From contig JBDRRF010000038.1 of assembly GCA_043825875.1 (NCBI GenBank), positions 26,830-90,829 of the forward strand: a DNA stretch of 64,000 nt, in the 5' to 3' direction. The position numbers and the translations under genes were made by a program. This DNA comes from Pseudomonadota bacterium. GTDB taxonomy: Bacteria > Desulfobacterota > Desulfobacteria > Desulfobacterales > RPRI01. The stretch's first letter is position 1. Every line of letters starts with the position of its first letter. Shown here piece by piece: positions 10,254 through 24,568 of this stretch. The notes under the pieces were generated by a model, which did not search any database, was not told the origin of the DNA, and was given only the letters and a program-made list of their open reading frames with translations.

Positions 10254-10520
10254 TCAATTGTAATGGCCACGGAATGAAGTAATATCTATTTCTTTAAGTG
10301 ATTCATAAATAGTATAAATAATACGGTCTTTATGGTTTACACGACGGCTGTATACTTCCTTTTCAAAATATTTAAGTCGTTCCGGCTTACCAGTACCGCC
10401 TCTTGGATTGCTGATCAATTCTCGTACCAAATCAAAACATTTGACATAACTGCTTCTATCATTTTTCCTAAACCAATCCAAATCGTCTTGAGCTTTCTTC
10501 AAGATTGTTATTCTATACAT
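10254..10520 (-). CDS. Txe/YoeB family toxin
   Basis: GTGKPERLK, YSRRVNHKDRIIY, C-terminal RGHY; start at MYRITIL overlapping the antitoxin. Confidence 0.9.
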   Translation of the reverse strand: MYRITILKKAQDDLDWFRKNDRSSYVKCFDLVRELISNPRGGTGKPERLKYFEKEVYSRRVNHKDRIIYTIYESLKEIDITSFRGHYN

Positions 10521-10779
10521 CGTCAAATGCTTCCTCAGGGCTGATGCCCTTTGGTCTCTCACCTTTATCCCGAATAGCATGCGATTCAATCAAGGCGGTC
10601 AATGATTCTTTGTCGTTAAGCAGTTTAAGAGTTTCTTTTATATGTAACCACTCTGTTTCATTCAAGATAACCACAGAGCCTTCATCTGTCGCAATAATTG
10701 TTTCATCTTTATCCTTTATTGCCTTAAGAATAACATTTTTAAGGTTTTTGGATGCCATATCAAATGTAATTGTTTGCAT
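10513..10779 (-). CDS. Phd/YefM family antitoxin
   Basis: ASKNLKNVI...VVILNETEW...ETLKLL; directly upstream of the YoeB toxin. Confidence 0.85.
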   Translation of the reverse strand: MQTITFDMASKNLKNVILKAIKDKDETIIATDEGSVVILNETEWLHIKETLKLLNDKESLTALIESHAIRDKGERPKGISPEEAFDDV

Positions 10780-11427: not shown

Positions 11428-11539
11428 ATTATCCTCTGCAATTCTCTTTCAATAAATACTTATTATATAAAAACTTTAATAAATTTTATGATATTTCAAA
11501 CCACCCTGTTTGTCAACATTCGGCAAAAACTATGATTTC

Positions 11540-11602
11540 ATTGTGTTGTGTTATAAAAATGGTTCAAAGTTCACAGTTTACAGTTCAAGGATTCAAAGGG
11601 TC
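11540..11602. repeat. TGTGTTAT box + heptamers + AGGATTCAAAGGGTC unit
   Basis: ATGGTTC AAAGTTC ACAGTTT ACAGTTC AAGGATTC AAAGGGTC. Confidence 0.75.
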
Positions 11603-11772
11603 AATCCCTCTGATATATGTAAATCGTTCAGATTTACTGAAGAACTGCTGTTTCTGCGTTCTTGTATGATACCATACAAATACACTTGCTCAAGAATCTC
11701 TTTCGCTTTCTCTGTTCGCTCCTATTCATCAAATGTCACAAGAGACACCTTTTTCTTTCCTTGTGCATCTGT
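11602..11772 (-). pseudogene. Antitoxin-like fragment in frame with the 3' end of the YdcF gene
   Basis: TDAQGKKKVSLVTFDE*RRTEKAKEILEQVYLYGIIQERRNSSSSVNLNDLHISEGL read through the TAG at 11722-11724. Confidence 0.45.
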
Positions 11773-12360
11773 CTGATGATACATTAAAAACCAGGCAATT
11801 TTGATATATTCGCTTCCCAGATTCTTCCAATCCGATGCTGAAAATTGCCATATTTTGTTATGCGCTGTCTCAAAGCGGGTCGGTACAAAGACGATTTTTG
11901 AGGATTTTTTGCCAAAGACTTTCTCTGTAATCAATTTTATACGGCGCATGTGAAAAGGGGAACTGACAAATATAGCGGACTCAAACCCGTATTTGTCCAT
12001 AATATTTTTCGCTATCAGTGTTTCGATATGCGTATCTTCAAAATAGGATTTGAATTTGAGGCCGGGTAAAAATGGTTTTTGTCTCAACGTTTCAAGCTTT
12101 GTGCTGAATGAAGTTGCAGACGTATCCAGAATTTGCCTGTAGGCAGGGATAAGAAGCAAACCGGCAAATCCTTGTCTGATGATCAAATCCACTTCCTTTT
12201 TACGTGCCTTGTTATCTGACTCTGTGCCAATAAACAGTACAATAGCATCAGCCTTGACCGGCTTGTCTGCATAGGCGAGATATTTTGGGGCATACCAGAG
12301 TCCCCCTAAGGCAATTGCAACAACAAGTAAAACTGTTACTAGTTTTATCTTATTGCGCAT
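11722..12360 (-). CDS. YdcF/DUF218 family protein
   Basis: N-terminal TM, KADAIVL, EDTHIE, FVSSPFHMRR. Confidence 0.85.
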   Translation of the reverse strand: MRNKIKLVTVLLVVAIALGGLWYAPKYLAYADKPVKADAIVLFIGTESDNKARKKEVDLIIRQGFAGLLLIPAYRQILDTSATSFSTKLETLRQKPFLPGLKFKSYFEDTHIETLIAKNIMDKYGFESAIFVSSPFHMRRIKLITEKVFGKKSSKIVFVPTRFETAHNKIWQFSASDWKNLGSEYIKIAWFLMYHQTDAQGKKKVSLVTFDE

Positions 12361-12386
12361 ATGCAGCCAGGGGGATGTTCTTCAGT

Positions 12387-12494
12387 TCAAAAATGGGAGT
12401 TAAGTAAATTTGAGCATTCTTCAAAGGTCTCGACATTTTTCTCCATCCTCGCATACAGCTCCGCCTTCTCAGTTACAGCGTGAATCCTTTGCAT
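12387..12494 (-). CDS. Possible 35-aa small ORF or gene fragment
   Basis: AAGGGGGG SD then MQRIHAVTEKAELYARMEKNVETFEECSNLLNSHF. Confidence 0.25.
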   Translation of the reverse strand: MQRIHAVTEKAELYARMEKNVETFEECSNLLNSHF

Positions 12495-12521
12495 AACGCC
12501 CCCCTTAAACCAATGAGCGGT

Positions 12522-12548
12522 GGTTAGCGCTTACGCTTCACTTCGTAC
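12522..12548 (-). repeat. Free-standing 27-nt mini-unit GTACGAAGTGAAGCGTAAGCGCTAACC
   Basis: 23/27 identical to 15115-15141; related to inserts in the MITE copies at 19025 and 21678. Confidence 0.8.
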
Positions 12549-12561
12549 CATTAACACGACT

Positions 12562-12619
12562 GGGCTAAAATCTCATTTGCCGAAATAATCGAAGTCTTCC
12601 TGTGGTTGAGATTATAGCC
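12562..12619. repeat. Diverged hairpin related to the MITE-1 core, without TIRs
   Basis: GGCTAAAATCTCA / TGAGATTATAGCC stem (12/13); shares CGAAATA and TTCCTGTGGTTGA with MITE-1. Confidence 0.65.
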
Positions 12620-12627
12620 TTTCTTAT

Positions 12628-12770
12628 GAGCCAGTTTCAAAACGCACCATTTTGGCCGATCTTAAGCGTTGGGCTCAAATTTCAATCCTCGAAATACTAT
12701 ATGTATTCCTGTGGTTGAAATTTTCTCCCGCCTTGAGCTTGACCAAACTGAAACGTTTTGAAAGTGGCTC
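12628..12770 (+). mobile_element. MITE-1 copy A (143 bp, no insert)
   Basis: TIR GAGCCAGTTTCAAAACG / CGTTTTGAAAGTGGCTC (16/17); TSD TTAT. Confidence 0.92.
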
Positions 12771-13196
12771 TTATACTTAACCAAAATATGGCATTCTTCT
12801 AATGTCTTGAAACATGATACCGGATTAATGCAAAACCCTTATACCCTCAAATTTCCTAAGCATGGTCTTATAACAAATATTCGATTGTAAAACAATGCAA
12901 TAGTTCTAAAATGTTATATTTTTTTTGCAATTTACTTTCTGTTTATCAACAGAAGAAGCAATATCTTAAAATATACTTTTATATAGTACGAAAACTGTGG
13001 GGTTTTGAAAATAATAGGAGAAAATTATAGGAGAGTTTTGAATAACTACCCGAAAATTATTTTCCTGTAATATTTGCTTTGCTTTTTAAATCCATAAAAG
13101 AAGTAATATAATAAGATTGGTTTCTATCATCGTAAGGTAATTTTTAATATCTCAACCTGATTATACAAATACTGCAATACTACTATCGTATAAGCT

Positions 13197-13229
13197 AAAA
13201 AAAGGGCAGGACCACCCTTGATCCTGCCC
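13197..13229 (-). terminator. Rho-independent terminator
   Basis: GGGCAGGATC-AAGGGT-GGTCCTGCCC then T7, just after the 13251 gene. Confidence 0.8.
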
Positions 13230-13250
13230 ATGCTTCCCTTCAGACAATTC

Positions 13251-13775
13251 TTATTTTTTAATTTTTCTCTTTATACCAACTAAGCCTAGCAGGCCGGAAC
13301 CAAAAAGTAAAACAGCTCCGGGGATTGGAACAGCAGGCGCTGCCTGTGTTGCGTCAAAGTGCCAGGTATACATTTCCTGGCCACCAAATGGGCTTAAAAT
13401 AAATGTACCGGTATTTGCCACAGTATCAAGAGTAAATGCTCTCAAAGTTGCTAAATAAACTGAACCGAAAGCTTCAACATCGTAATCTTGGCTGGCATCC
13501 ACACTCAGAACACCGGCAGCCATCGTGCCCGGCCCGGTCATTGGTGCAGGCCATGCCCATGTAGTCAAACTATCTTCAGTACCTAGGTTAGTCGTGCCAA
13601 TCGTTACCATATCCGGGGTCGTAAGATCGCCAGCTATAGTTAAATCGAATGTAAAAGGCCCAAGAGTTGCCGTATTTGTCTCTGCCGGCTTTGAACAATT
13701 ATAAACGATTGAAGCATTTGCTGAACCCACAACAAACAAAAAACATACCATGGTCAAAAAAATAACTTTCTTCAT
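13251..13775 (-). CDS. VPLPA-CTERM (PEP-CTERM-type) surface protein
   Basis: Signal peptide; C-terminal VPIPGAVLLFGSGLLGLVGIKRKIKK. Confidence 0.9.
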   Translation of the reverse strand: MKKVIFLTMVCFLFVVGSANASIVYNCSKPAETNTATLGPFTFDLTIAGDLTTPDMVTIGTTNLGTEDSLTTWAWPAPMTGPGTMAAGVLSVDASQDYDVEAFGSVYLATLRAFTLDTVANTGTFILSPFGGQEMYTWHFDATQAAPAVPIPGAVLLFGSGLLGLVGIKRKIKK

Positions 13776-14000
13776 TCTTTTCTCCTTTTCCTTTGCATGT
13801 CTGGTTATTAGCTCTGCAATAGATATTGATTTTGAAGGGAAGCACTTGCAGAACCAAGGAATGTCTTGCCTTTTTTGCTTATACTATCTTAAGAAAAGTA
13901 ATTTACTTTTAATATAATTTTTTGATATTTGCTTTTAACAGTGATCTGTTAAGATTTTTAAAGCTCTTTATATTCAGTGAAATACGCAGTATTAGACATT

Positions 14001-14132
14001 GATGGCCTCGTAAAAAGTCTGATAACTCCTGTTTCGTCATGCCGGACCTGATCCGGCATCCAGTAATTTCAATAGGTTCTGAATACCAGCTTTCGCAGGT
14101 ATGACGATTTGGGGACTTTTTGCGAATTCAAC
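14001..14132. mobile_element. MITE-2 with internal REP-like palindrome
   Basis: Ends GATGGCCTCGTAAAAAGTC / GACTTTTTGCGAATTCAAC; flanks GACATT/AACATT; internal CGTCATGCCGGACCTGATCCGGCATCCAG...CTGAATACCAGCTTTCGCAGGTATGACG. Confidence 0.7.
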
Positions 14133-14373
14133 AACATTAAGAAAACTTGCATTACCAATTAATCTTATCTATTGATTGCAGTAAAAGGTACCAGAACACT
14201 TCGTTTAATTTTTTCTTTTGCTGCCGATCTCAAAGATTTGGGCATTACAATACTATACTATATTATACTATTGCCAAGAGAGTATTGGCAGGCGTAAAAT
14301 ACTATCGGAGCAATAACAAACGACACATCATTTGTTATTTATATCTTAATGATATATATTTGAGTGCTAAAAG

Positions 14374-14901
14374 TCAGCATTGTTTCCGGGTACGATAACC
14401 GGCCAGACAAAGGATGCCCGAGCCAAGAAGCCAAAAAGCGCCAGGCAGAGGTGCATGAACCGGCATAAGGTTGTCAACTCCATTTTGGTTTGAAATAAAA
14501 TCAATTTTTACGGGTAAACTTGAAAGCGCTGTCCAATAAATACTAAGCGAATCGTAGTGGTTTGTAAGATTCTCACCTAAGAACTCAATACTATAAGGTG
14601 AATATAGATAGCTATCATCATCTTTCATGACTGCCAACTCAACACGAGTTTTCCAATCTGAAGCGGCAGTAGTTGGCACTTCAACCAGCGGGGTTACAAA
14701 TGGAAACCACTCAGTACCTAGTTTGTAGAATAATTGCCCCAAACCGCCTGCAAGAGGATCGTTGATATTAATATCAGTGATTTCAATATCTGCTTTTCCA
14801 TCATGATCCTCATCTATTGCATAAAACTGAACTGCCGCAGCCATTGACGTAAGGCCAAAAACAATAAACGCCGTCATGCCAACCAATAAGACTTTTTTCA
14901 T
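14374..14901 (-). CDS. VPLPA-CTERM surface protein
   Basis: Signal peptide; C-terminal APLPGAFWLLGSGILCLAGYRTRK. Confidence 0.88.
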   Translation of the reverse strand: MKKVLLVGMTAFIVFGLTSMAAAVQFYAIDEDHDGKADIEITDININDPLAGGLGQLFYKLGTEWFPFVTPLVEVPTTAASDWKTRVELAVMKDDDSYLYSPYSIEFLGENLTNHYDSLSIYWTALSSLPVKIDFISNQNGVDNLMPVHAPLPGAFWLLGSGILCLAGYRTRKQC

Positions 14902-14993
14902 TGCTTAGTTCCTCCTTAGGGCTATCTGGTTTAAGTACTACCGCAAAATTATAAAAATAAATTTTTATTAGCAGAATATTGGGTAGAAGTTTT

Positions 14994-15440
14994 TGGAATG
15001 TTCAAATGAAAAAACAGACTACCACATTTTAAGCTGCCTTTAGACAGTGGAGCCAGTTTCAAAACGCCCCATTTTGGCCGATCTCTTCGTTGGGCTCAAA
15101 TTTCGCACGAAGTGACACGTAGTGAAGCATAAGCGCTAACCTTTAGCGCTATCCTCGAAATACTTAATGTATTCCTGTGGTTGAAATTTTCTCCCGCCTT
15201 GAGCTTGACCAAACTGAAACGTTTTGAAAGTGGTTCAGTGTTCTTTTTCATAAGTAAATGGGCTTTTATAACCCAAGGTTTAATGAGGTCTAATGAAATT
15301 GCAATACGAGATATAATCCAACACTTCATGATTTGCTAAGTGTTTTGCTATAAATCGATAATGCGATAACCTGTAAGGCTCCAGGCTGCGAAGAAACCGT
15401 TCTGTGAGGTAATTATCCCAACAGTTTTTTTCGGCTCATG
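14994..15440 (-). mobile_element. IS3-family remnant: orfB C-terminus and right end, interrupted by MITE-1 copy B
   Basis: MSRK/CWDNYLTERFLRSLE...EVLDYISYCNFIRPH*TLGYKSPFTYEKE; removing the MITE and one TSD restores ...EKEHCLKAA*; degenerate IR ends in CA at 14994. Confidence 0.8.
15050..15236 (+). mobile_element. MITE-1 copy B (187 bp, double nested insert at 15105-15150)
   Basis: Same TIRs; TSD AGTG. Confidence 0.92.
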
Positions 15441-15489
15441 CCTGGTAGTATTCAATACTGTTCGCTTTTTATTTTAAATTATTTAACCA

Positions 15490-15505
15490 TGCAATACATG
15501 GACCA
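15490..15505 (-). promoter_or_regulatory. Sigma-54 -24/-12 promoter
   Basis: TGGTCCATGTATTGCA (GG-N10-GC); IHF-consensus TATCAATATATTA at 15523-15535; repeated GGTAAANNCATACA at 15609 and 15664. Confidence 0.65.
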
Positions 15506-15782
15506 ACCGTGGCCATTTAGCATAATATATTGATATCATTCATTATATAAATATTATGGGTTATAATCTAAATGAAGCAATTGAAGGGTATTTCATACGC
15601 AAAGGTTAGGTAAAGACATACATTGTTTTTTAACAGCTTGAAATAATACAAATATTATTCGGAGGTAAACTCATACACTTTTTTACTCTAGTAAAATTTG
15701 TTTGATCTATATCATGCATTATTAATATCTTCAGAAGTACAAAATAATACTTGAATACGCAAAAAGAGAATCTTATCTATCT

Positions 15783-16856
<1,074 letters not shown>

Positions 16857-16953
16857 TTATGGTATATGAAACGAGATTGCCATCTGCTTTTGCTGATGCT
16901 TTGAGGATTCAAGCCTAAAATACAAGCTGATTTTCCTTGGCCACAGGAGCCCT

Positions 16954-17095
16954 GAGCCAGTTTCAAAACGCCCCATTTTGGCCGATCTCTGCGTTGGGCT
17001 CAAATTTTAATCCTCGAAATACGCCATGTATTCCTGCGGTTAAAATTTTCGCCCGCCTTGAGCTTAAACAAACTGAAACGTTTTGAAAGTGGCTC
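16954..17095 (+). mobile_element. MITE-1 copy C (142 bp, no insert)
   Basis: Same TIRs; TSD CCCT. Confidence 0.92.
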
Positions 17096-17195
17096 CCCTG
17101 TTTATCTATTACCAGATATATAGCATTTGTCAAAATAATGTTCCGAGTTAATATGTAATTGTTTGGTTATGACATTTGCTATAAAGAACAGGCAT

Positions 17196-17224
17196 AAAAA
17201 AAGCAGGGTCGTTTCCGACCCTGC
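17196..17224 (-). terminator. Rho-independent terminator
   Basis: GCAGGGTCG-GAAA-CGACCCTGC then T7. Confidence 0.8.
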
Positions 17225-17409
17225 CGGTATTTTTACAAAGAGGCTTCACAGAAGCCTTTAGCCGATTTTTTACAATTCGCATACACACCAATAACCAAAT
17301 GGAACAAACTTATAACCTTTGTGCTACAGCTCCTACTTTCTTAAATAAAAAAATGGAATAGCAAAGCTGCAAAAAATACTCTGCTATCCCATCTCACTTT
17401 TGTGTTATT

Positions 17410-18702
17410 TTAACTCACATGTACCGCTATCCGTCGCCTTACCCCCACAAGCCCGATCAATCCGGCAGCTAACAACCATAGCGAAGCAGGAATAGGAACC
17501 GCAGAAAGAAACATTGAGTTGCCTGATGTAACAAATTCAAAACCGGTAACAGGTCCTGCGAGAAGACTTCCGGTTAAAGTATACGCTGTAAAGGGATTCG
17601 TGATGCCGCCGGTCGCAGTTATGATTTCAAATTGATCACCTATCGCAAGACTATAACCTGGCAATAATTCGATTTGCAGAATAGCTCCGCCAAGGTCGGC
17701 GGTTCCGTCAATATTAAGCTGATCATAATCGCTTATACTAGATAACTGGATATTAAGTATTCCTCCAGATTGAATATAATCACCCGTGACTGAAAGCATG
17801 CCAGGTGAGTTACCCGGCCCGACATTTCCACCGCTAACAGATACGTCTCCAATTATTGAACCACTGCCCTGCAAGATACCTCCGCTCATAGAAACCGGAG
17901 CAGTCAGAGTACCGTTTACTATTGTCATACCATCAGTCTGCGTATAACTTGTTGCACTGGCATTGCTGCCATTCTGAATATCGAACGTTCCGGTGTTGGT
18001 AACTGCACCGGTAATATTTCCACCGGCAGCGCTTAATGTCGAAGTCCCGGAATTATTAAGAGTCGAAGTCATGGCCCCACCGGAGAAATTGAAAGCACCA
18101 CTGTTAGAGGTAGTATCGGCAGTCAGTGAACCACCACTCAGGTTATATATTTTGCCATTGTTTATGGTAAGAATACTGCCGCTGTCCGTAAATATACTCG
18201 TTCCGTTTGTCTGATTAAAGGTGTCGAAGTTTAATGTGCCACCGGTTCTATTGAAGGTACCATTGTTAGTAAGCGTCCCTGCAGAAAGCGTTCCGCCACT
18301 TAAGTTATAAGCACCTAAAGTACTGATTGTGCCGGCATTCATGTTCAATGTCCCAGCACTTTGATTTAAGGAACTTAAATCATTAACAGTGAGAATGGTT
18401 GATTGGAGAGTTGTGCCAGATGTTGTTAAGTTAAGATTGCTACCAGTTAGCGTTAACGATGATAAATCACCATTAGCCTTTTTATCATAATTGACCGAGT
18501 AGCCAGAACCAATGGATACAACATCTCCTCCCGTTGGCACACCATTAGGGTCCCAATTCTTTTTTTGGCTCCATTTATCAGACCCACCACCATCATCCCA
18601 TGATACCAAGTCTGCACTTGCCTTCATCGGAAATCCGAGAGCAACCAAACTTATTGTTGCCAAGGTAACCGCCAGAATAATCATTGTTCTTTTATTTTTC
18701 AT
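17410..18702 (-). CDS. VPLPA-CTERM protein with Gly/Thr/Asn-rich beta-helix repeats (autotransporter passenger-like)
   Basis: Signal peptide, WDDGGG..W...NW motif, repeated YNLSGG/FNQTNG, PGNSPG, C-terminal VPIPASLWLLAAGLIGLVGVRRR. Confidence 0.88.
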   Translation of the reverse strand: MKNKRTMIILAVTLATISLVALGFPMKASADLVSWDDGGGSDKWSQKKNWDPNGVPTGGDVVSIGSGYSVNYDKKANGDLSSLTLTGSNLNLTTSGTTLQSTILTVNDLSSLNQSAGTLNMNAGTISTLGAYNLSGGTLSAGTLTNNGTFNRTGGTLNFDTFNQTNGTSIFTDSGSILTINNGKIYNLSGGSLTADTTSNSGAFNFSGGAMTSTLNNSGTSTLSAAGGNITGAVTNTGTFDIQNGSNASATSYTQTDGMTIVNGTLTAPVSMSGGILQGSGSIIGDVSVSGGNVGPGNSPGMLSVTGDYIQSGGILNIQLSSISDYDQLNIDGTADLGGAILQIELLPGYSLAIGDQFEIITATGGITNPFTAYTLTGSLLAGPVTGFEFVTSGNSMFLSAVPIPASLWLLAAGLIGLVGVRRRIAVHVS

Positions 18703-18772
18703 TATATCTCATCACCTTATATTTATAATCTCATACGCATAACTTATTTATTATTTATATAGCCAGCAATTA

Positions 18773-18788
18773 TACAAACCTCATGCCA
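18773..18788 (-). promoter_or_regulatory. Possible sigma-54 promoter (GT instead of GC at -12)
   Basis: TGGCATGAGGTTTGTA; IHF-consensus TATCAGTATATTA at 18840-18852. Confidence 0.5.
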
Positions 18789-19024
18789 ACAGGTTGAGAT
18801 AGAGTTATTAACTGTTTTTATAACACATTTTATACATATTAATATACTGATATAACGACAATAATATATCTATTTCATACAGCGGGAATCCTATGGGATA
18901 AGAACCCCAAAAGAGAAAACTATATGGGAAAAGCATTAAATATATTTATAGAACCATTAAATAATTTAATAGCAGAAAGGGGAAATAATTTTCATAAATG
19001 CTCCGATTCAATTTGTAATTGTTT

Positions 19025-19189
19025 TAGCCGGTTTCAAAACGTTTCAGTTTGGTCAAGCTCAAGGCGGGCGAAATTTTTAACCGCAGGAATACATGGCGTA
19101 TTTCGAGGATAGCGCTAATGCTTCACTTCGTGCGAAATTTGAGCCCAACGCAGAGATCGGCCAAAAATGGGGCGTTTTGCAATTGGCTC
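19025..19189 (-). mobile_element. MITE-1 copy D (165 bp, single insert, inverted)
   Basis: Reverse complement of the family, slightly degenerate TIRs; TSD GTTT. Confidence 0.9.
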
Positions 19190-19231
19190 GTTTGGCTATG
19201 AGTGCGTATGTAATTTTCAGGAAGAAAAAGA

Positions 19232-21661
19232 TTAAGAAGATATATTCTCCGGTAGTTTATAATCCTTGAAAAATTGCCATATGATCTCATTGGCATCAAG
19301 ATTGACTGCTGTTTTGCCGAATATTTTTTCCGGAAAAAACTTAGGCCTTCCGGGCCATGTATGGCCGCCTTCTTCTATTTTGTAAAATACTACTTTTACT
19401 TCTTCACTACCTTTTCCATACATATAGCATTTTATCGAAAGATCCGATGGCCCTTTTTCCAGTTCGGTATAAACAGGTTCCGAATCACAGCCGTTTTTAT
19501 CTACCCACCATTGCACAAATTCTTCGGAAGACAAACTCGCTCCCTTATAAGTACCGGCAGTTCCGCCTTCATAATAAGCAAATACATCGTTTGTCCCATG
19601 AAAATAGATTACAGGCACAGGACGATCAGGGTGCCACTTTTTGTCCATATCTTTAAATATTGTTGCGGAAACAGGAGCTATAGCCGTTATCTTATTTGCA
19701 AATGCAGCTGCCAAATAAATGGCCATGCCACCGCCGTTAGAATATCCGGTTACATAAACACGCCTTGGATCGATGGGCGCTTTTTCTATCAATTTATCAA
19801 TTAATGCCGATAAGAACGAAACATCGTCAACTTCCGGTATCCGGCAATCATTCCAATGCAACCTGCCTTTATATGTTCCTATCGCATCGGGATATACCAC
19901 AACAAAGTTTTTTTCATCGGCAATATCGGACCAACCTGAAATTCTCTCCATTTGCAGTCCTGTCATTTGGCCGCCATGAAGCATCAGTACTAAAGGCAGG
20001 CGATTACCGGGTGTAAAGCCAACAGGCATATGAACACGGTATGTACGCTTTCGATCATCGAACATCATTGAACAATCATACTTGCCGGAAGATTCAATTA
20101 CTTCTTGTAATGCATATTGCTCTCGAAGCACACGTTTTAATTTCTTTCCCGAAGTTGAAGAAGGAATCTCATCTATAAATATTACTTCTTTCGGCTTTTT
20201 ATGTGATGCAAGCTTATCTTTAACATAATCTATGATATCTTGTTCGCTTACCATTGCATTTTTTTTGGGAACCACATAGGCAACAAGCCTTTCTCCCCAA
20301 TTCTGATCAGGTACCCCTATTACCGAAGAATCGTAAACATCCTTATGAGTGTGCAGTACTTCTTCTATTTCGGCAGGATAGATATTTACGCCCCCGGATA
20401 TAACCATATCAACATCCCTGTCCGCGATATAATAATAACCGTCCTTATCCATACTAGCCATATCGCCTACCGTAAAATAGCCGTCATAATAAATTGCTTT
20501 TGTTGCTTCTGGTTTTTCATGATAGCCGCTTAGCAGAAAAGAGCTCTTTACATATATTTTACCAATTTCTCCGATTTGCACCTCAGTATTATTTTCATCA
20601 AGCAACTTGATTTCTACACCTGGGGCCGCTTTTCCGCAGCTTCCCGGCTTTTTTAATTGGTCTTCAGGTATCATAAATGTCACACAGCTAAGCTCGGTTC
20701 CTCCATACATTTCATAGATCTTATCGTTTCCGAATATCTCAACCGCTTTTTTCTTAAGAGCAAACGGGAAAGCCTCTCCGGTTACTATTATCAGGCGAAG
20801 AGAAGAAAAATCATATTTTTTTAATATTTCTTCAGGCAAACTACAAATTCGATTCAACATGGTAGGAACTACAAAAGTAGTTGTAACACGATGTTTTTGT
20901 ATAAGTTCAAGAAAATTTACGGCATCAAATTTCGGCATAATTACAACGGGGTTTCCAAAAAGAAAAGAACAGCTTGCAAAACTCAAAGGAGCGGTATGGC
21001 ACAAAGGGCCTGCCACAATGTGTTTATCGCTAAAATCCCAACCTGTTATGAATGCATACAAAAGCATCATGTTCAATCTGTTTTTACTGTTTCTGACAAC
21101 ACCCTTTGGTCTGCCTGTTGTGCCGGAAGTATATATCAATGAAGATGCCATTCCAAGAGAAGGATTTTGCAAACCCGGATCAGTATCATTATCAGCATTG
21201 ATAAGATCTTTAAATCCAATTGAGTCTGATTTTACAGGCCCGTTCGCACAAACATATATCAGATCCGGATTTTCGATTTTATCCTTAACTCCGGAAATTA
21301 TCTTTTCAAATTGATGATCGTAAATTAAAATCTTTGATTTAGAATCATTTACGATATGGGCTACTTCATCTTCTTTAAAACGATAATTAATAAATACAGG
21401 CGTAGTATAAATCTTACCACATGCATGCCATATATATATCATTTCAGGGCAATTGGACATGAGAACCGAAACCCTGGAATTGGCTGCAATTTTATGCTGC
21501 AATAAAGAATTAGCTAAAATATTACCGGTTCTATCAAGCTCTTTATATGAGACAGTAATATCTTCCATAATAATAGCCGGATGTTCCGGGGTTCTTTTTG
21601 CGTGATTTGCTATCCCAAGCTTTTCTGTGCCAATGTTTTTTATATAATCATCAAGATCCAT
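19232..21661 (-). CDS. Fusion: AMP-dependent acyl-CoA synthetase + LpqC/PHB-depolymerase-like esterase
   Basis: YTSGTTGRPKG, YGGTE, GD..MD.DGY, GGVNIYPAEIE; then LHGG, VVVYPD, GYSNGG, GGHTWPG. Confidence 0.88.
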   Translation of the reverse strand: MDLDDYIKNIGTEKLGIANHAKRTPEHPAIIMEDITVSYKELDRTGNILANSLLQHKIAANSRVSVLMSNCPEMIYIWHACGKIYTTPVFINYRFKEDEVAHIVNDSKSKILIYDHQFEKIISGVKDKIENPDLIYVCANGPVKSDSIGFKDLINADNDTDPGLQNPSLGMASSLIYTSGTTGRPKGVVRNSKNRLNMMLLYAFITGWDFSDKHIVAGPLCHTAPLSFASCSFLFGNPVVIMPKFDAVNFLELIQKHRVTTTFVVPTMLNRICSLPEEILKKYDFSSLRLIIVTGEAFPFALKKKAVEIFGNDKIYEMYGGTELSCVTFMIPEDQLKKPGSCGKAAPGVEIKLLDENNTEVQIGEIGKIYVKSSFLLSGYHEKPEATKAIYYDGYFTVGDMASMDKDGYYYIADRDVDMVISGGVNIYPAEIEEVLHTHKDVYDSSVIGVPDQNWGERLVAYVVPKKNAMVSEQDIIDYVKDKLASHKKPKEVIFIDEIPSSTSGKKLKRVLREQYALQEVIESSGKYDCSMMFDDRKRTYRVHMPVGFTPGNRLPLVLMLHGGQMTGLQMERISGWSDIADEKNFVVVYPDAIGTYKGRLHWNDCRIPEVDDVSFLSALIDKLIEKAPIDPRRVYVTGYSNGGGMAIYLAAAFANKITAIAPVSATIFKDMDKKWHPDRPVPVIYFHGTNDVFAYYEGGTAGTYKGASLSSEEFVQWWVDKNGCDSEPVYTELEKGPSDLSIKCYMYGKGSEEVKVVFYKIEEGGHTWPGRPKFFPEKIFGKTAVNLDANEIIWQFFKDYKLPENISS

Positions 21662-21677
21662 ATTATATTCTCAATTC

Positions 21678-21841
21678 GAGCCAGTTTCAAAACGCCCCAT
21701 TTTGGCCGATCTCTGCGTTGGGCTCAAATTTCGCACGAAGTGAAGCATTAGCGCTATCCTCGAAATACTTAATGTATTCCTGCGGTTGAAATTTTCTCCC
21801 GCCTTGAGCTTGACCAAACTGAAACGTTTTGAAAGTGGCTC
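21678..21841 (+). mobile_element. MITE-1 copy E (164 bp, single insert)
   Basis: Same TIRs; flanks ATTC / ACTT(C), so the TSD is imperfect. Confidence 0.9.
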
Positions 21842-21844
21842 ACT

Positions 21845-24568
21845 TCATTTGATATTCAATCCAGACCGGCGTCTGAACAGTTTTTCCGCTTCAACAGCTA
21901 AAAATATCACCATGCTGTTTGCCAAAACCATGCCCCAATCCAAAAGGCCCATTGGAACACTATCAAATATTTCGTTAAAAAAAGGCGAATAAGTATAAAT
22001 AATCTGAAGCAGTGTCATGATCAATACACCCGGCCAGATAAATTTGTTGCTCCAAAGGCCCAGCTTCCAGAAAGGTTGAGTTATGGAACGACAATTAAAC
22101 AGGTAAAACATTTCGCCGAATACGAATATATTAACCGCCAGTGTACGGGCCAAATCCTCGCTTTTTCCTAAAACATTAATTTCCAGATTGAAAACTCCGA
22201 AGGCTCCGATAACTAAAAGAACCGTAACCAATGCTATTCGCTGTATCATCGGCTTAGTAAGAATAGGCGTCTTGGGATCACGGGGTGGCCTTTTCATTAT
22301 ACCAGGCTCCTTGGGTTCGAATGCCAGCATCAAACCCAGGAGAAGGGCTGTTGTCATGTTAATCCACAGAATCTGTAGAGGCAGTATAGGCAGTTTGCTT
22401 CCTGATAATACGGCGGCTAATATGACCAAGCCCTCCCCACCGTTTGTCGGAAGAGTCCAGGTGATAAATTTGATCAGGTTATCGAACACCCCCCGGCCTT
22501 CTTCAACTGCAGCTTTAATGGTTGCAAAATTATCGTCAGTAAGCACCATATCCGCCGATTCCTTGGATACTTCTGTACCCGTTATGCCCATCGCAACACC
22601 AATGTTTGCCTGGCGCAGGGCAGGAGCATCATTTACCCCATCACCCGTCATGGCCACTACATATTCCCGTTTTTGCAAAGCCTCCACCAGCCTAAGTTTC
22701 TGCTCGGGTGAAACCCTGGCAAATACTGCCGTGCGATCGGTCTGTTCCTCAAGGTCTTCATCACTTAACATGGCAATATCTTTTCCCGTTAAAACTTCAC
22801 GGGTATGATAAGAACAGCTTTCCCCGCACAAACCTATTTGCCGGGCAATGGCCGCAGCCGTTCCCGCATGGTCTCCTGTTATCATTTTAACACGGATTCC
22901 TGCACTCTGACATCCCTCAACTGCTTCTATTGCTTCGGGCCGTGGAGGATCTATCATTCCCTGAAGACCCAAAAACTCAATACCTTGTTCAACATCTGCA
23001 TGGATAATACCGGCTTTATCGACTCCGACCTGTTTTCGCGCAAAGGCCAGCACTCTTAGACCTTTATCGGCCATTGAATGAACCCAGTCCATGATTGTAT
23101 CATGTCCGGGAAGATCCGGCTGCCCGTCCGGCCCCAACATTATATTGCATTCAACACAAAGACTTTCAACGGAACCCTTGATGTAGATAGTCCGGTGCTT
23201 GTCATTTGCCCTGCTGTGAAGAGTTGCCATATACTGACGTTCGGATTCGAAAGGTATTGTGTCAAGGCGAGGCATTTCATTTTCCAGATTCTTTATATCA
23301 TACCCGGCTTTGACAGCAGATGTAATCAGTGCACCTTCTGTGGGATCACCATCAACTTTCCATAAATCGTCAGTTTTTTTAAGACTTGAATCATTGCACA
23401 ACATGCCGGCTTTCAGCAATTCCTGAAGAGCTATATTTGATTCAAGATCAAAACCGCCGTTAGCATCTTCTATCCTGCCTTCGGGTGCATAGCCAACACC
23501 CGTTGCCATATATAGTTTCCCACCTGCAATTATCTCCTGTACCGTCATCTGATTTTGTGTAAGGGTACCTGTTTTGTCCGAACATATAATCATGGTTGAA
23601 CCCAGAGTCTCTACCGCAGGCAATTTGCGTATGATAGCATTGCGATCGGCCATGCGCGAAACACCAATTGCCAAAGTTATGGTAATTGCTGCCGGAAGGC
23701 CTTCCGGAATGGCACCTACAGCCAGGGCAACAGAGGCCATAAACATTTCTACAAGGTCATTACCACGTAAAAATCCCACTGCAAAAGTCAGTACAGCCAT
23801 TGCCAAAATGGCATAAAGCAATACCTTTGAAAAACTATGAATTTTTTTAGTAAGCGGAGTCTCAAGGATTTTAGCTGATGCAATCAATTCGTTTATTCGG
23901 CCTATCTCGGTACTGTCACCTGTGGATACCACAATCCCCCGTCCACCACCGTAGGTCACAAGGGTGGAAGAATAAGCCATATTGCGCCTATCGCCTACCG
24001 CCATATCGGCTGGAAGCACTGTGTTTTCCTTATGCGTGGGCACACTTTCTCCCGTAAGGGCACTTTCATCAATATGTAACTCACGTGTATGGATCAGGCG
24101 TATATCAGCCGGGACCTTGTCACCCGATCCAAGCATAACAATGTCACCCGGCACAAGCCGGTTTGACGGAAGGCGATGCTTTTGCCCGTCACGTAAAACA
24201 TTAGCCTCGCTTGTCATTGCTTTGCTTAAGGCCTCGATAGCTTTAAGCGCTTTTGCCTCCTGCACAAAACCGATAAAAGCGTTCACTATAACTACGCCAA
24301 AGATTACCGCCGCATCCACGTATTCCTTAAGGAAAAAAGCAATAATTGCCGCCACAAGAAGGATATAAACAAGCGACTGGTTAAATTGCAAAAAGAACCG
24401 GGCGAAAAGCCCCTGGCCTTTTTTCTGTGTAAGTTCGTTTAAACCGAATATTTCCGTTCTATGCAATGCTTCCTGGTCGGACAGTCCCTTTGTTATATCG
24501 GTTTTTAAAACCGTGACTAATTCCTCAACTTCAAGGCCGTGCCAGTTCTTTTCCGTTGATATTTTCAT
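21845..24568 (-). CDS. Cation-transporting P-type ATPase (type IIA, Ca2+-ATPase-like)
   Basis: TGES, IPEGL, DKTGT, TGDGVND, QILWIN. Confidence 0.93.
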   Translation of the reverse strand: MKISTEKNWHGLEVEELVTVLKTDITKGLSDQEALHRTEIFGLNELTQKKGQGLFARFFLQFNQSLVYILLVAAIIAFFLKEYVDAAVIFGVVIVNAFIGFVQEAKALKAIEALSKAMTSEANVLRDGQKHRLPSNRLVPGDIVMLGSGDKVPADIRLIHTRELHIDESALTGESVPTHKENTVLPADMAVGDRRNMAYSSTLVTYGGGRGIVVSTGDSTEIGRINELIASAKILETPLTKKIHSFSKVLLYAILAMAVLTFAVGFLRGNDLVEMFMASVALAVGAIPEGLPAAITITLAIGVSRMADRNAIIRKLPAVETLGSTMIICSDKTGTLTQNQMTVQEIIAGGKLYMATGVGYAPEGRIEDANGGFDLESNIALQELLKAGMLCNDSSLKKTDDLWKVDGDPTEGALITSAVKAGYDIKNLENEMPRLDTIPFESERQYMATLHSRANDKHRTIYIKGSVESLCVECNIMLGPDGQPDLPGHDTIMDWVHSMADKGLRVLAFARKQVGVDKAGIIHADVEQGIEFLGLQGMIDPPRPEAIEAVEGCQSAGIRVKMITGDHAGTAAAIARQIGLCGESCSYHTREVLTGKDIAMLSDEDLEEQTDRTAVFARVSPEQKLRLVEALQKREYVVAMTGDGVNDAPALRQANIGVAMGITGTEVSKESADMVLTDDNFATIKAAVEEGRGVFDNLIKFITWTLPTNGGEGLVILAAVLSGSKLPILPLQILWINMTTALLLGLMLAFEPKEPGIMKRPPRDPKTPILTKPMIQRIALVTVLLVIGAFGVFNLEINVLGKSEDLARTLAVNIFVFGEMFYLFNCRSITQPFWKLGLWSNKFIWPGVLIMTLLQIIYTYSPFFNEIFDSVPMGLLDWGMVLANSMVIFLAVEAEKLFRRRSGLNIK

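What the first reader, a model, noticed from the sequence alone, without database searches (positions are those of the whole stretch)
12522..21756. A 22-27 nt mini-hairpin unit that inserts into MITEs, into itself and stands alone: candidate micro-mobile element
Seen: MITE-1 copies A and C read CAAATTTY-A-ATCCTCG. Copies D and E have GCACGAAGTGAAGCATTAGCGCT in place of that A (+22). Copy B has a second unit, ACACGTAGTGAAGCATAAGCGCTAACC (15115-15141), nested inside the first (+45). A free copy, GTACGAAGTGAAGCGTAAGCGCTAACC, lies at 12522-12548 (minus strand, 23/27 to the nested one). There is no TSD and no TIR. The unit folds as CAC-GNA-GTG plus AGCR-TWAG-CGCT, and the GAA/GTA change hits only the N of the loop. 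Established: C-GNA-G triloops form exceptionally stable ssDNA mini-hairpins, and HUH transposases recognise small ssDNA hairpins and insert without TSD. Inference: a very small element propagated in trans, or the footprint left by a larger element.
Basis: partly seen in the sequence, partly recalled or inferred. Interest (0 to 1): 0.85.

Follow-up and report, generated by a model that had tools for sequence, protein, structure and literature searches.

The report
Tiny self-nesting DNA insert in repeats
A 22-base piece of DNA shaped like two small hairpins has been pasted again and again into transposon remnants, palindromic repeats, tandem repeats and its own copies in one order of sulfate-reducer-type bacteria, so it behaves like the smallest known mobile elements of cyanobacteria, moved by machinery that is still unknown.

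Summary
The insert is real. The core CACGNAGTGAAGCNNNAGCGCT occurs 4 times in the window (0 expected) and 51 times in the genome: 43 at one MITE site, 7 in unrelated CGTC-type REPs and 1 in a decayed sister MITE. Across Desulfobacterales-type genomes (34 of 151 in the order, 0 of 291 outside it) it fills 15 distinct sites in MITEs, REPs, tandem arrays and itself, on both strands. There is no TSD, and 1-3 target bases are rewritten (AAT to G-unit-AT; AAG to A-unit-AAC). Nested stacks run up to five deep, and inner and outer right loops differ in 31 of 31 loop combinations, which excludes slippage. Four of 13 MITE loci shared with a close relative differ in unit state. No parent element or co-occurring enzyme was found. 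Closest known: the small dispersed repeats (SDR) of Nostoc; I could not read the original paper. This scan noted similar micro-inserts in several other genomes before. Verdict: new member of a known, mechanistically unexplained kind.

The parts
21734..21755 (+). Unit core (22 nt; GAA triloop, ATTA loop) in MITE-1 copy E; the G at 21733 replaces the A of the empty site
19111..19132 (-). Unit core in MITE-1 copy D (same variant as E); carried G at 19133
15105..15150 (+). Nested stack in MITE-1 copy B: G + outer left hairpin (GAA loop) 15105-15114, A 15115, inner core 15116-15137 (GTA / ATAA loops), rewritten junction AACC 15138-15141, outer right half (TTTA loop) 15142-15150
12526..12547 (-).
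12482..12808 (+). Decayed sister MITE (MITE-2) that hosts the 12526-12547 unit and is interrupted by MITE-1 copy A; also present, without copy A, in relative G008
12628..12770 (+). MITE-1 copy A, empty site AAT at 12684-12686, 4-bp TSD TTAT; absent from the orthologous place in G008
15050..15236 (+). MITE-1 copy B (187 nt, nested unit), TSD AGTG
16954..17095 (+). MITE-1 copy C, empty site AAT at 17009-17011, TSD CCCT
19025..19189 (-). MITE-1 copy D (165 nt, single unit), TSD AAAC
21678..21841 (+). MITE-1 copy E (164 nt, single unit), no intact TSD
14035..14106 (.). CGTC-tagged REP pair without the unit; this repeat type is the unit's second host elsewhere in the genome (7 loci)

Best explanation
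A gene-less micro-element of the SDR kind: a 22-nt core (CAC-GNA-GTG, one A, AGC-NNNAGC-GCT) that travels with a few fixed end bases (G...AT, or A...AAC/AAT/CAT/CAA). SHOWN: it has entered many unrelated selfish repeats and itself independently, at purine-rich AAT/AAA/AAG steps, without duplicating the target and while rewriting 1-3 target bases. Within a host family it also spreads by riding with the MITE and by in-place change at fixed loci. INFERRED: the strand that carries C-GNA-G folds as two abutting mini-hairpins (a nicked dumbbell). A protein encoded elsewhere cuts that strand at fixed ends and patches it into single-stranded or extruded repeat DNA. An HUH/Y1-type cut-and-join enzyme is my first guess; none was identified. 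My odds: independent insertion into unrelated hosts about 0.9; a dedicated trans-acting ssDNA enzyme about 0.55-0.6.
For: Hosts. 7 of 51 genome matches are in CGTC REPs, and 4 of those are nested. Fifteen sites were defined across held sequence; 11 show both empty and filled states. Both strands of one MITE are used. Fixed ends. G-unit-AT recurs where the empties read AAT: MITE site 1 (50 of 54 filled; AAT in 67 of the 77 empties listed), GGAATAATG arrays (13 of 13; AAT in 25 of the 33 listed), CCCCTCG arrays (3 of 3). It also recurs where the empties read AAA or GAA (site 2, 6 of 7). In REPs with the GTCATTC arm, empties read AAT or AAA in 12 of 12 and filled copies have G in 55 of 66. TGAAGC becomes TGA-unit-AACC both in the unit itself (AACC in 59 of 65 occurrences) and in a MITE (2 contexts). 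Nesting. Of 31 loop combinations, right loops differ in 31 and left loops in 25; stacks of three and five occur. Turnover. Four of 13 loci shared by G008 and G000 differ. L254 (single vs empty) and L261 (single vs nested) match on both flanks and share private host variants. Decoupled from the MITE: 9 of 34 unit-bearing genomes lack the MITE core, and 6 genomes with 30 or more cores lack the unit. Specificity. AATCC occurs 13,265 times in the genome, yet all 51 matches are in repeats. DNA signature. Outer left loops, which no search pattern fixed, are GNA in 26 of 31 combinations; GNA closed by C:G is an unusually stable DNA loop (PMC3201870, passages). Architecture. HIP1-splitting 21-mers on a Nostoc plasmid also read as two abutting 3-bp C-GNA-G hairpins (4 similar copies among 14 matches).
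Against: No enzyme was found. There is no co-occurrence with four-helix-bundle genes (20/23 vs 17/25), integron integrase (13/23 vs 15/25), reverse transcriptase (16/23 vs 13/25) or one RAYT-like protein (4/23 vs 3/25); all p > 0.15. No mobile gene was among the 92 of 225 neighbouring ORFs scanned. The fold has no energy support (z +0.82; circular form +0.9 kcal/mol, matched by 9% of shuffles) and no covariation. Stem and GNA invariance in fetched loci is partly built in by the search patterns. Within-family differences can be gene conversion: at L259 flanking host markers changed too, and two of the 13 shared loci match on one flank only. A looser REP pattern finds 7 empties that already read GAT, so selection of rare G^AT targets is not excluded for REPs. 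No empty state was found for 4 of 15 sites. The unit is still associated with the MITE core across genomes (25/34 vs 38/117, p 3e-5, kin not independent).
Confidence: 0.58

Rival explanations
1. No dedicated enzyme. The unit is a structure-prone patch that host replication or repair copies between repeats by template switching or microhomology-guided gene conversion (shared GG on the left, ATCC or ATAT on the right). The rewritten bases are donor flank carried along.
For: Donor-like end bases overwrite the target. Conversion among MITE copies is visible (L259; the unit occurs on several backbone types). No partner gene was found. A rare loop variant clusters on one G008 contig (3 copies within 20 kb).
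Against: The ends stay within 1 nt on the left and 3 nt on the right across 15 sites with little flank similarity. Only 13 half-only or damaged hits were found against 351 full contexts. Serial nesting at one exact phosphodiester with different variants. Patchy distribution despite abundant hosts.
Confidence: 0.25
2. RNA intermediate. A short structured transcript is reverse-transcribed and patched into the target, as I recall was suggested for the Nostoc SDRs.
For: Replacement of a few target bases resembles cDNA-guided homing (recalled). RT genes are present in 16 of 23 unit-rich genomes.
Against: RT genes are also in 13 of 25 unit-free genomes and were not found in 7 unit-rich ones at E 1e-20. 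The conserved loop is C-GNA-G, a DNA-type triloop. RNA folding shows nothing special (z +0.73).
Confidence: 0.1
3. Footprint or minimal derivative of a larger IS200/IS605-like or integrative element whose left and right ends are the two hairpins.
For: Two hairpins back to back, no TSD, and the nested insertion point lies exactly between them. IS608-type enzymes bind 20-25-nt hairpins (PMC6006769, passages).
Against: No separated halves around cargo in the genome plus 477 loci. None beside the Y1, GIY-YIG or RT genes fetched (36 loci, two isolated left-hairpin 9-mers). No match in viral contigs, phages or plasmids.
Confidence: 0.05
4. Not mobile: an ancestral part of the MITE, deleted in most copies, with the +45 form made by two slippage duplications.
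For: Formally, +45 equals a 10-nt and a 13-nt tandem duplication. Six of 31 nested combinations have identical inner and outer left loops.
Against: Unrelated hosts. Right loops differ in 31 of 31. The AAG-to-AAC junction also arises in a non-self target. Genomes carry the unit without the MITE core.
Confidence: 0.02

Closest known systems
Small dispersed repeats SDR1-8 of Nostoc and relatives (Elhai et al. 2008, Genome Res 18:1484). Paper not held; seen only through passages of PMC4390886, PMC5861425, PMC13756078, PMC2884548 and PMC3116915; the rest is recalled
   Same: Size about 21-27 nt (SDR5 is 21 nt per PMC13756078). Precise insertion into a short target (SDR5 between bases 3 and 4 of HIP1 per PMC4390886). 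Restriction to one clade (PMC5861425). No known mover. Recalled: residence in heptamer repeats and mini-transposons, and self-nesting. Tested here: HIP1-splitting 21-mers on a Nostoc plasmid have the same two-abutting-mini-hairpin build with C-GNA-G loops, and like the G-type unit they land before ATC.
   Different: Other phylum; no sequence likeness to those 21-mers; not tied to HIP1. It rewrites 1-3 target bases, whereas those 21-mers split HIP1 cleanly. No compensatory changes were seen here. I read the loop as pointing to DNA, not RNA.
REP/REPIN with RAYT (TnpA-REP) and IS200/IS605 ends (PMC3733652, PMC6006769, PMC3116915; passages read)
   Same: Small single-strand hairpins, no TIR and no TSD, intergenic, non-autonomous.
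   Different: No GTAG or CGTC tag, no doublets, and no transposase gene flanked by the unit. It is a passenger inside REPs, not a REP. Stems are 3 bp, and target bases are rewritten.
IS-derived MITEs (the host, MITE-1)
   Same: Non-autonomous and multi-copy. Filled MITEs jump whole (L251, L253, L262 are absent from G000).
   Different: MITE-1 has about 16-bp TIRs and a 4-bp TSD (87 with 4 and 7 with 5 matching bases, of 134). The unit has neither and is a seventh of the size.

Membership tests
SDR kind (Nostoc small dispersed repeats) | Dispersed multi-copy repeat of about 21-27 nt (21 nt for SDR5 from PMC13756078; range recalled) | tested here: met
   22-nt core, 23-26 nt with carried ends; 51 matches in G000
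SDR kind (Nostoc small dispersed repeats) | Embedded at exact positions in other repeats (tandem heptamers, mini-transposons; recalled) with empty counterparts | tested here: met
   15 sites, 11 with empty and filled states
SDR kind (Nostoc small dispersed repeats) | Found inside copies of itself (recalled for two families) | tested here: met
   49 distinct stacks, depth up to five
SDR kind (Nostoc small dispersed repeats) | Confined to a coherent clade (PMC5861425) | tested here: met
   34 of 151 genomes of the order; 0 of 291 outside it in the phylum sample
SDR kind (Nostoc small dispersed repeats) | Secondary structure backed by compensatory mutation (recalled for three families) | tested here: not met
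   Stem 1 unchanged in 312 of 317 contexts, no paired alternative; stem 2 likewise; patterns partly force this
SDR5 itself | Inserted in HIP1 (GCG^ATCGC) and alike in sequence | tested here: not met
   Targets are AAT/AAA/AAG steps in repeats; the HIP1-splitting 21-mers share the build, not the sequence
SDR kind (Nostoc small dispersed repeats) | Moves through an RNA intermediate (suggested in the paper, recalled; not proven there) | not testable with these tools
   No RNA holder listed; RT does not track the unit
REP/RAYT and IS200/IS605 non-autonomous elements | No target-site duplication | tested here: met
REP/RAYT and IS200/IS605 non-autonomous elements | Cognate Y1 transposase gene flanked by the repeat | tested here: not met
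   No full unit beside 12 Y1 loci fetched from five unit-rich genomes; none among 92 neighbours scanned
REP/RAYT and IS200/IS605 non-autonomous elements | Guide tetranucleotide 5' of a 20-25-nt hairpin (GTAG or CGTC tag) | tested here: not met
   Only one base 5' of the core is constant as a purine (348 of 351); stems are 3 bp
REP/RAYT and IS200/IS605 non-autonomous elements | Cleavage and strand transfer of the ssDNA by an HUH enzyme | not testable with these tools
   Needs biochemistry
MITE | Terminal inverted repeats and TSD | tested here: not met
   The unit has neither; the host has both
Integron cassette / attC | attC-type paired boxes and dependence on IntI | tested here: not met
   22 nt with no paired boxes; IntI in 13/23 vs 15/25 genomes; the attC-like look near 12490 is the TIR of the decayed MITE-2

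The most novel reading that the evidence does not exclude
The unit moves as a 23-24-nt single-stranded DNA dumbbell, nicked or closed: a GNA-capped 3-bp stem and a second 3-bp stem joined across a purine-A mismatch, as the circular fold predicts. One unknown, widespread enzyme swaps this dumbbell for 1-3 bases of extruded repeat DNA. The same pathway would move the cyanobacterial SDR5-like 21-mers, which share the build, and the micro-inserts this scan noted in other phyla: a distinct minimal transposition chemistry whose elements are smaller than a primer.
Probability: 0.2. Interest if true: 0.85.

Novelty: new member of a known kind. Interest (0 to 1): 0.56.

Why it matters
How elements of 21-27 nt move has stayed open since they were described in Nostoc; a 2026 paper still calls SDR5's function unknown (PMC13756078, passage). 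This family gives a defined donor, a junction rule drawn from 15 sites, stacks that record serial insertion of different variants, and loci that differ between two close relatives. That is enough to build donor and target reporters and to hunt the enzyme by comparing unit-rich and unit-free genomes. It also shows that bacterial MITEs and REPs carry their own parasites. A precise, duplication-free insertion of about 22 nt could be a useful tagging chemistry if an enzyme exists.

Tried and rejected
Rfam scan of 11500-22500: six weak hits, all far below gathering and none on the unit. attC reading of the 12490-12550 region: it is a MITE-2 end. Parent element with separated halves: none. Neighbour genes: 92 of 225 ORFs (those up to 260 aa or overlapping) were scanned; the Pfam hits were housekeeping or regulatory, none a transposase, recombinase, nuclease or RT, and many had no hit. 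Candidate movers by co-occurrence: Y1 family (139/151; none of the 12 Y1-negative genomes has the unit, p 0.07), a RAYT-like protein (87), four-helix bundle (74), IntI (88) and RT (89); none discriminates. GIY-YIG was only looked up in five unit-rich genomes (all positive), not in controls. Folding energy, linear and circular, is not beyond shuffles; covariation is absent (95). Viral contigs, phages and plasmids: no match. Sequencing runs: no RNA holder listed; contigs laid on the region say nothing on unit gain or loss. Rule of a pure insertion at G^AT targets: it fits some copies but not the many sites whose empties read AAT or AAA; not fully excluded. A tree of MITE backbones was prepared but not built, because 142 nt with evident conversion would not resolve gains. 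Orientation against replication was only eyeballed in one near-closed genome (both strands mixed). An autonomous IS for MITE-1 was not identified (output of 79 cut). Elhai 2008 could not be read. Paper searches found no account of this unit; most subscription papers and bioRxiv supplements are outside the library.
Full report
OBSERVATION. The five MITE-1 copies measure 143 (A), 187 (B), 142 (C), 165 (D) and 164 nt (E), so the +22 and +45 states are as described. MITE-1 is an ordinary IS-type MITE: of 134 full copies with flanks, 87 have a 4-bp and 7 a 5-bp target duplication. One point is wrong. The 'free' copy lies inside a decayed sister MITE (about 12482-12808; local alignment 152.5 against shuffle maximum 80.7), on the opposite strand and at another site. 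MITE-1 copy A later landed in it and is missing at the orthologous place in relative G008.

THE GENOME. With up to three substitutions the unit matches 51 places: 43 at MITE site 1 (30 single, 13 nested), 7 in CGTC-type REPs (3 single, 4 nested) and the one in the decayed MITE. A host-anchored count finds about 198 empty sites against 29 single and 12 nested among 245 matches, six of them chance hits. A few more copies with indels or decay appear. The REPs share nothing with the MITE but ATCC right of the site; an empty REP (C18:13462) and filled ones (C92:3298, C96:28646) are directly comparable. The five-letter target AATCC occurs 13,265 times, so sequence alone does not explain the confinement to repeats.

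RELATIVES. The unit is in 15 of 16 genomes of the genus and 34 of 151 of the order. It was not found in the 291 genomes sampled outside the order, nor in viral contigs, phages or plasmids. It is associated with the MITE core but separable from it: 9 of 34 carriers lack that core, and six genomes with 30-114 cores lack the unit.

SITES AND JUNCTIONS. I defined 15 sites by hand: four in the MITE-1/2 family (two per strand), five in three other MITE-like repeats, the 3' arm of CGTC REPs, four kinds of tandem array, and the unit itself. Eleven show both empty and filled states; for four no empty was held. Empties read mostly AAT, AAA, GAA or AAG. Filled sites read G-unit-AT (net +22) or A-unit-AAC/AAT/CAT/CAA (net +23), with some plain A-unit-AT. 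G-unit-AT follows AAT in the MITE (50 of 54 filled), in GGAATAATG arrays (13 of 13) and in CCCCTCG arrays (3 of 3), and it follows AAA/GAA at MITE site 2 (6 of 7). In REPs with a GTCATTC arm, 12 of 12 empties have A where 55 of 66 filled copies have G. So the unit most likely brings its end bases and overwrites 1-3 target bases. Against this, a looser REP pattern finds 7 empties that already read GAT. End type is linked to loop type (pyrimidine-start right loop in 109 of 143 G-type against 6 of 57 A-type contexts), though these contexts are not independent. Caveat: the scan required an A after the core, and most loci were fetched with patterns that fix the stems.

NESTING. The unit inserts between its own two hairpins, turning GTGAAGC into GTGA-unit-AACC (AACC in 59 of 65 occurrences). 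The same change occurs at a TGAAGC in a MITE, where slippage cannot apply. Among 31 distinct loop combinations, inner and outer right loops differ in all 31, left loops in 25, and both are never the same (19 of 19 in the smaller set). L062 stacks three variants and L094 five left halves. This is serial insertion of different family members.

TURNOVER. Of 98 full G008 MITE-1 copies examined (of about 200), 13 share a locus with G000. Nine are empty in both, and four differ: L254, L259 and the one-flank L238 are single against empty, L261 single against nested. L254 and L261 keep private host variants on both sides. L259 also changed nearby host markers, which points to gene conversion. Filled MITEs also jump whole (L251, L253, L262). 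Within a host family, hitchhiking and conversion are therefore enough; the case for the unit's own mobility rests on unrelated hosts and on nesting. Short-read misassembly cannot be excluded, but unit and unique flank are only about 55 nt apart.

STRUCTURE. Variation falls in the N of GNA and in the right loop. Outer left loops, which no fetch pattern fixed, are GNA in 26 of 31 combinations, TTTA in 2. GNA closed by C:G is a very stable DNA triloop (PMC3201870, abstract and passages); that TTTA is a special DNA loop is recalled. Only one strand carries this motif, which I take as a hint at a single-stranded DNA form. Standard energies give no support (z +0.82 DNA, +0.73 RNA), and stems show no compensatory change. 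Folded as a circle, G plus core gives a dumbbell with a G-A mismatch, but 9% of shuffles do as well. The dumbbell is a hypothesis.

MOVER. Not found. No half-unit pair encloses cargo in 5.76 Mb. The neighbours scanned are housekeeping genes (92 of 225). No full unit lies beside the Y1, GIY-YIG or RT genes fetched. Four candidates fail to separate 23 unit-rich from 25 unit-free genomes, and Y1 is too common to tell. My best model is a trans-acting enzyme that cuts the folded strand at fixed ends and patches it into extruded or single-stranded repeat DNA (0.58). Enzyme-free template switching or conversion is the main rival (0.25), then an RNA route (0.10).

KNOWN SYSTEMS. Earlier notes of this scan pointed me to the small dispersed repeats of Nostoc. 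I could not read Elhai et al. 2008. Passages of citing papers give: SDR5 is 21 nt and its function unknown (PMC13756078); it inserts between bases 3 and 4 of HIP1 (PMC4390886); none was found outside the Nostocaceae among HIP1-rich cyanobacteria (PMC5861425); such repeats 'might be mobile' (PMC2884548). Self-nesting and residence in heptamer repeats and mini-transposons are recalled. As a test I searched a Nostoc plasmid for HIP1 split by 21 bases: 4 of 14 matches are near-identical 21-mers built of two abutting 3-bp C-GNA-G hairpins; calling them SDR5 is my inference. The unit works like an SDR and shares that build, but it is not SDR5. It fails the tests for REP/RAYT, MITE and attC (PMC3733652, PMC6006769 and PMC3116915, passages; PMC2703918, passages, added nothing). 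Eight searches found no description of this unit; the library lacks most subscription papers and bioRxiv supplements.

VERDICT. Real and independently inserted into unrelated repeats; a new family of a known but unexplained kind, outside cyanobacteria; similar micro-inserts were already noted by this scan in other genomes. Interest 0.56.

Noticed in passing
MITE-1/2 family in loci L056, L087, L114, L126, L139, L165, L215, L222, L371, L433, L500, L505: The same MITE family hosts at least eight other small inserts (14-36 nt) at fixed positions, several palindromic and some apparently duplicating a few bases; it is a landing pad for a zoo of micro-elements.
   Followed up: partly
G000 C79:22053 and C95:15737; L298: A second insert of about 16-28 nt sits in the other REP of the same REP pairs that carry the unit.
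   Followed up: no
G000 C75:28525, C95:15960, C57:7662, C79:142670: A larger element with its own inverted ends has inserted into the GAA loop of CGTC REPs, so these REPs are hit at three places.
   Followed up: no
L185:900-2500: A small GIY-YIG gene is flanked on both sides by arrays of CGTC-type repeats. PMC3733652 (passages) says CGTC REPs lack a dedicated transposase; seven other small GIY-YIG loci showed no such arrays.
   Followed up: partly
window 16954-19189: MITE copies C and D face each other around a PEP-CTERM gene (17410-18702); the whole block is missing in G008 and in related contigs of three other runs.
   Followed up: partly
G000 C110:35071 (L477:738): A MITE-2-type terminal repeat lies about 760 nt upstream of a DDE_Tnp_1 transposase fragment, a candidate parent family for the sister MITE.
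   Followed up: no
G000 C12:27850: One MITE-1 copy reads G instead of A at the empty site, which is what exact removal of the 22-nt core would leave; a point mutation explains it equally (1 of about 198).
   Followed up: no
G000 C31:43304-43435: An element with MITE-1-like terminal repeats encloses a CGTC REP pair instead of the usual interior.
   Followed up: no
window 10254-10589 (-): YoeB-type toxin-antitoxin toxin gene.
   Followed up: no
G368: 45 reverse-transcriptase matches, most with identical scores, suggesting a recent retroelement burst.
   Followed up: no
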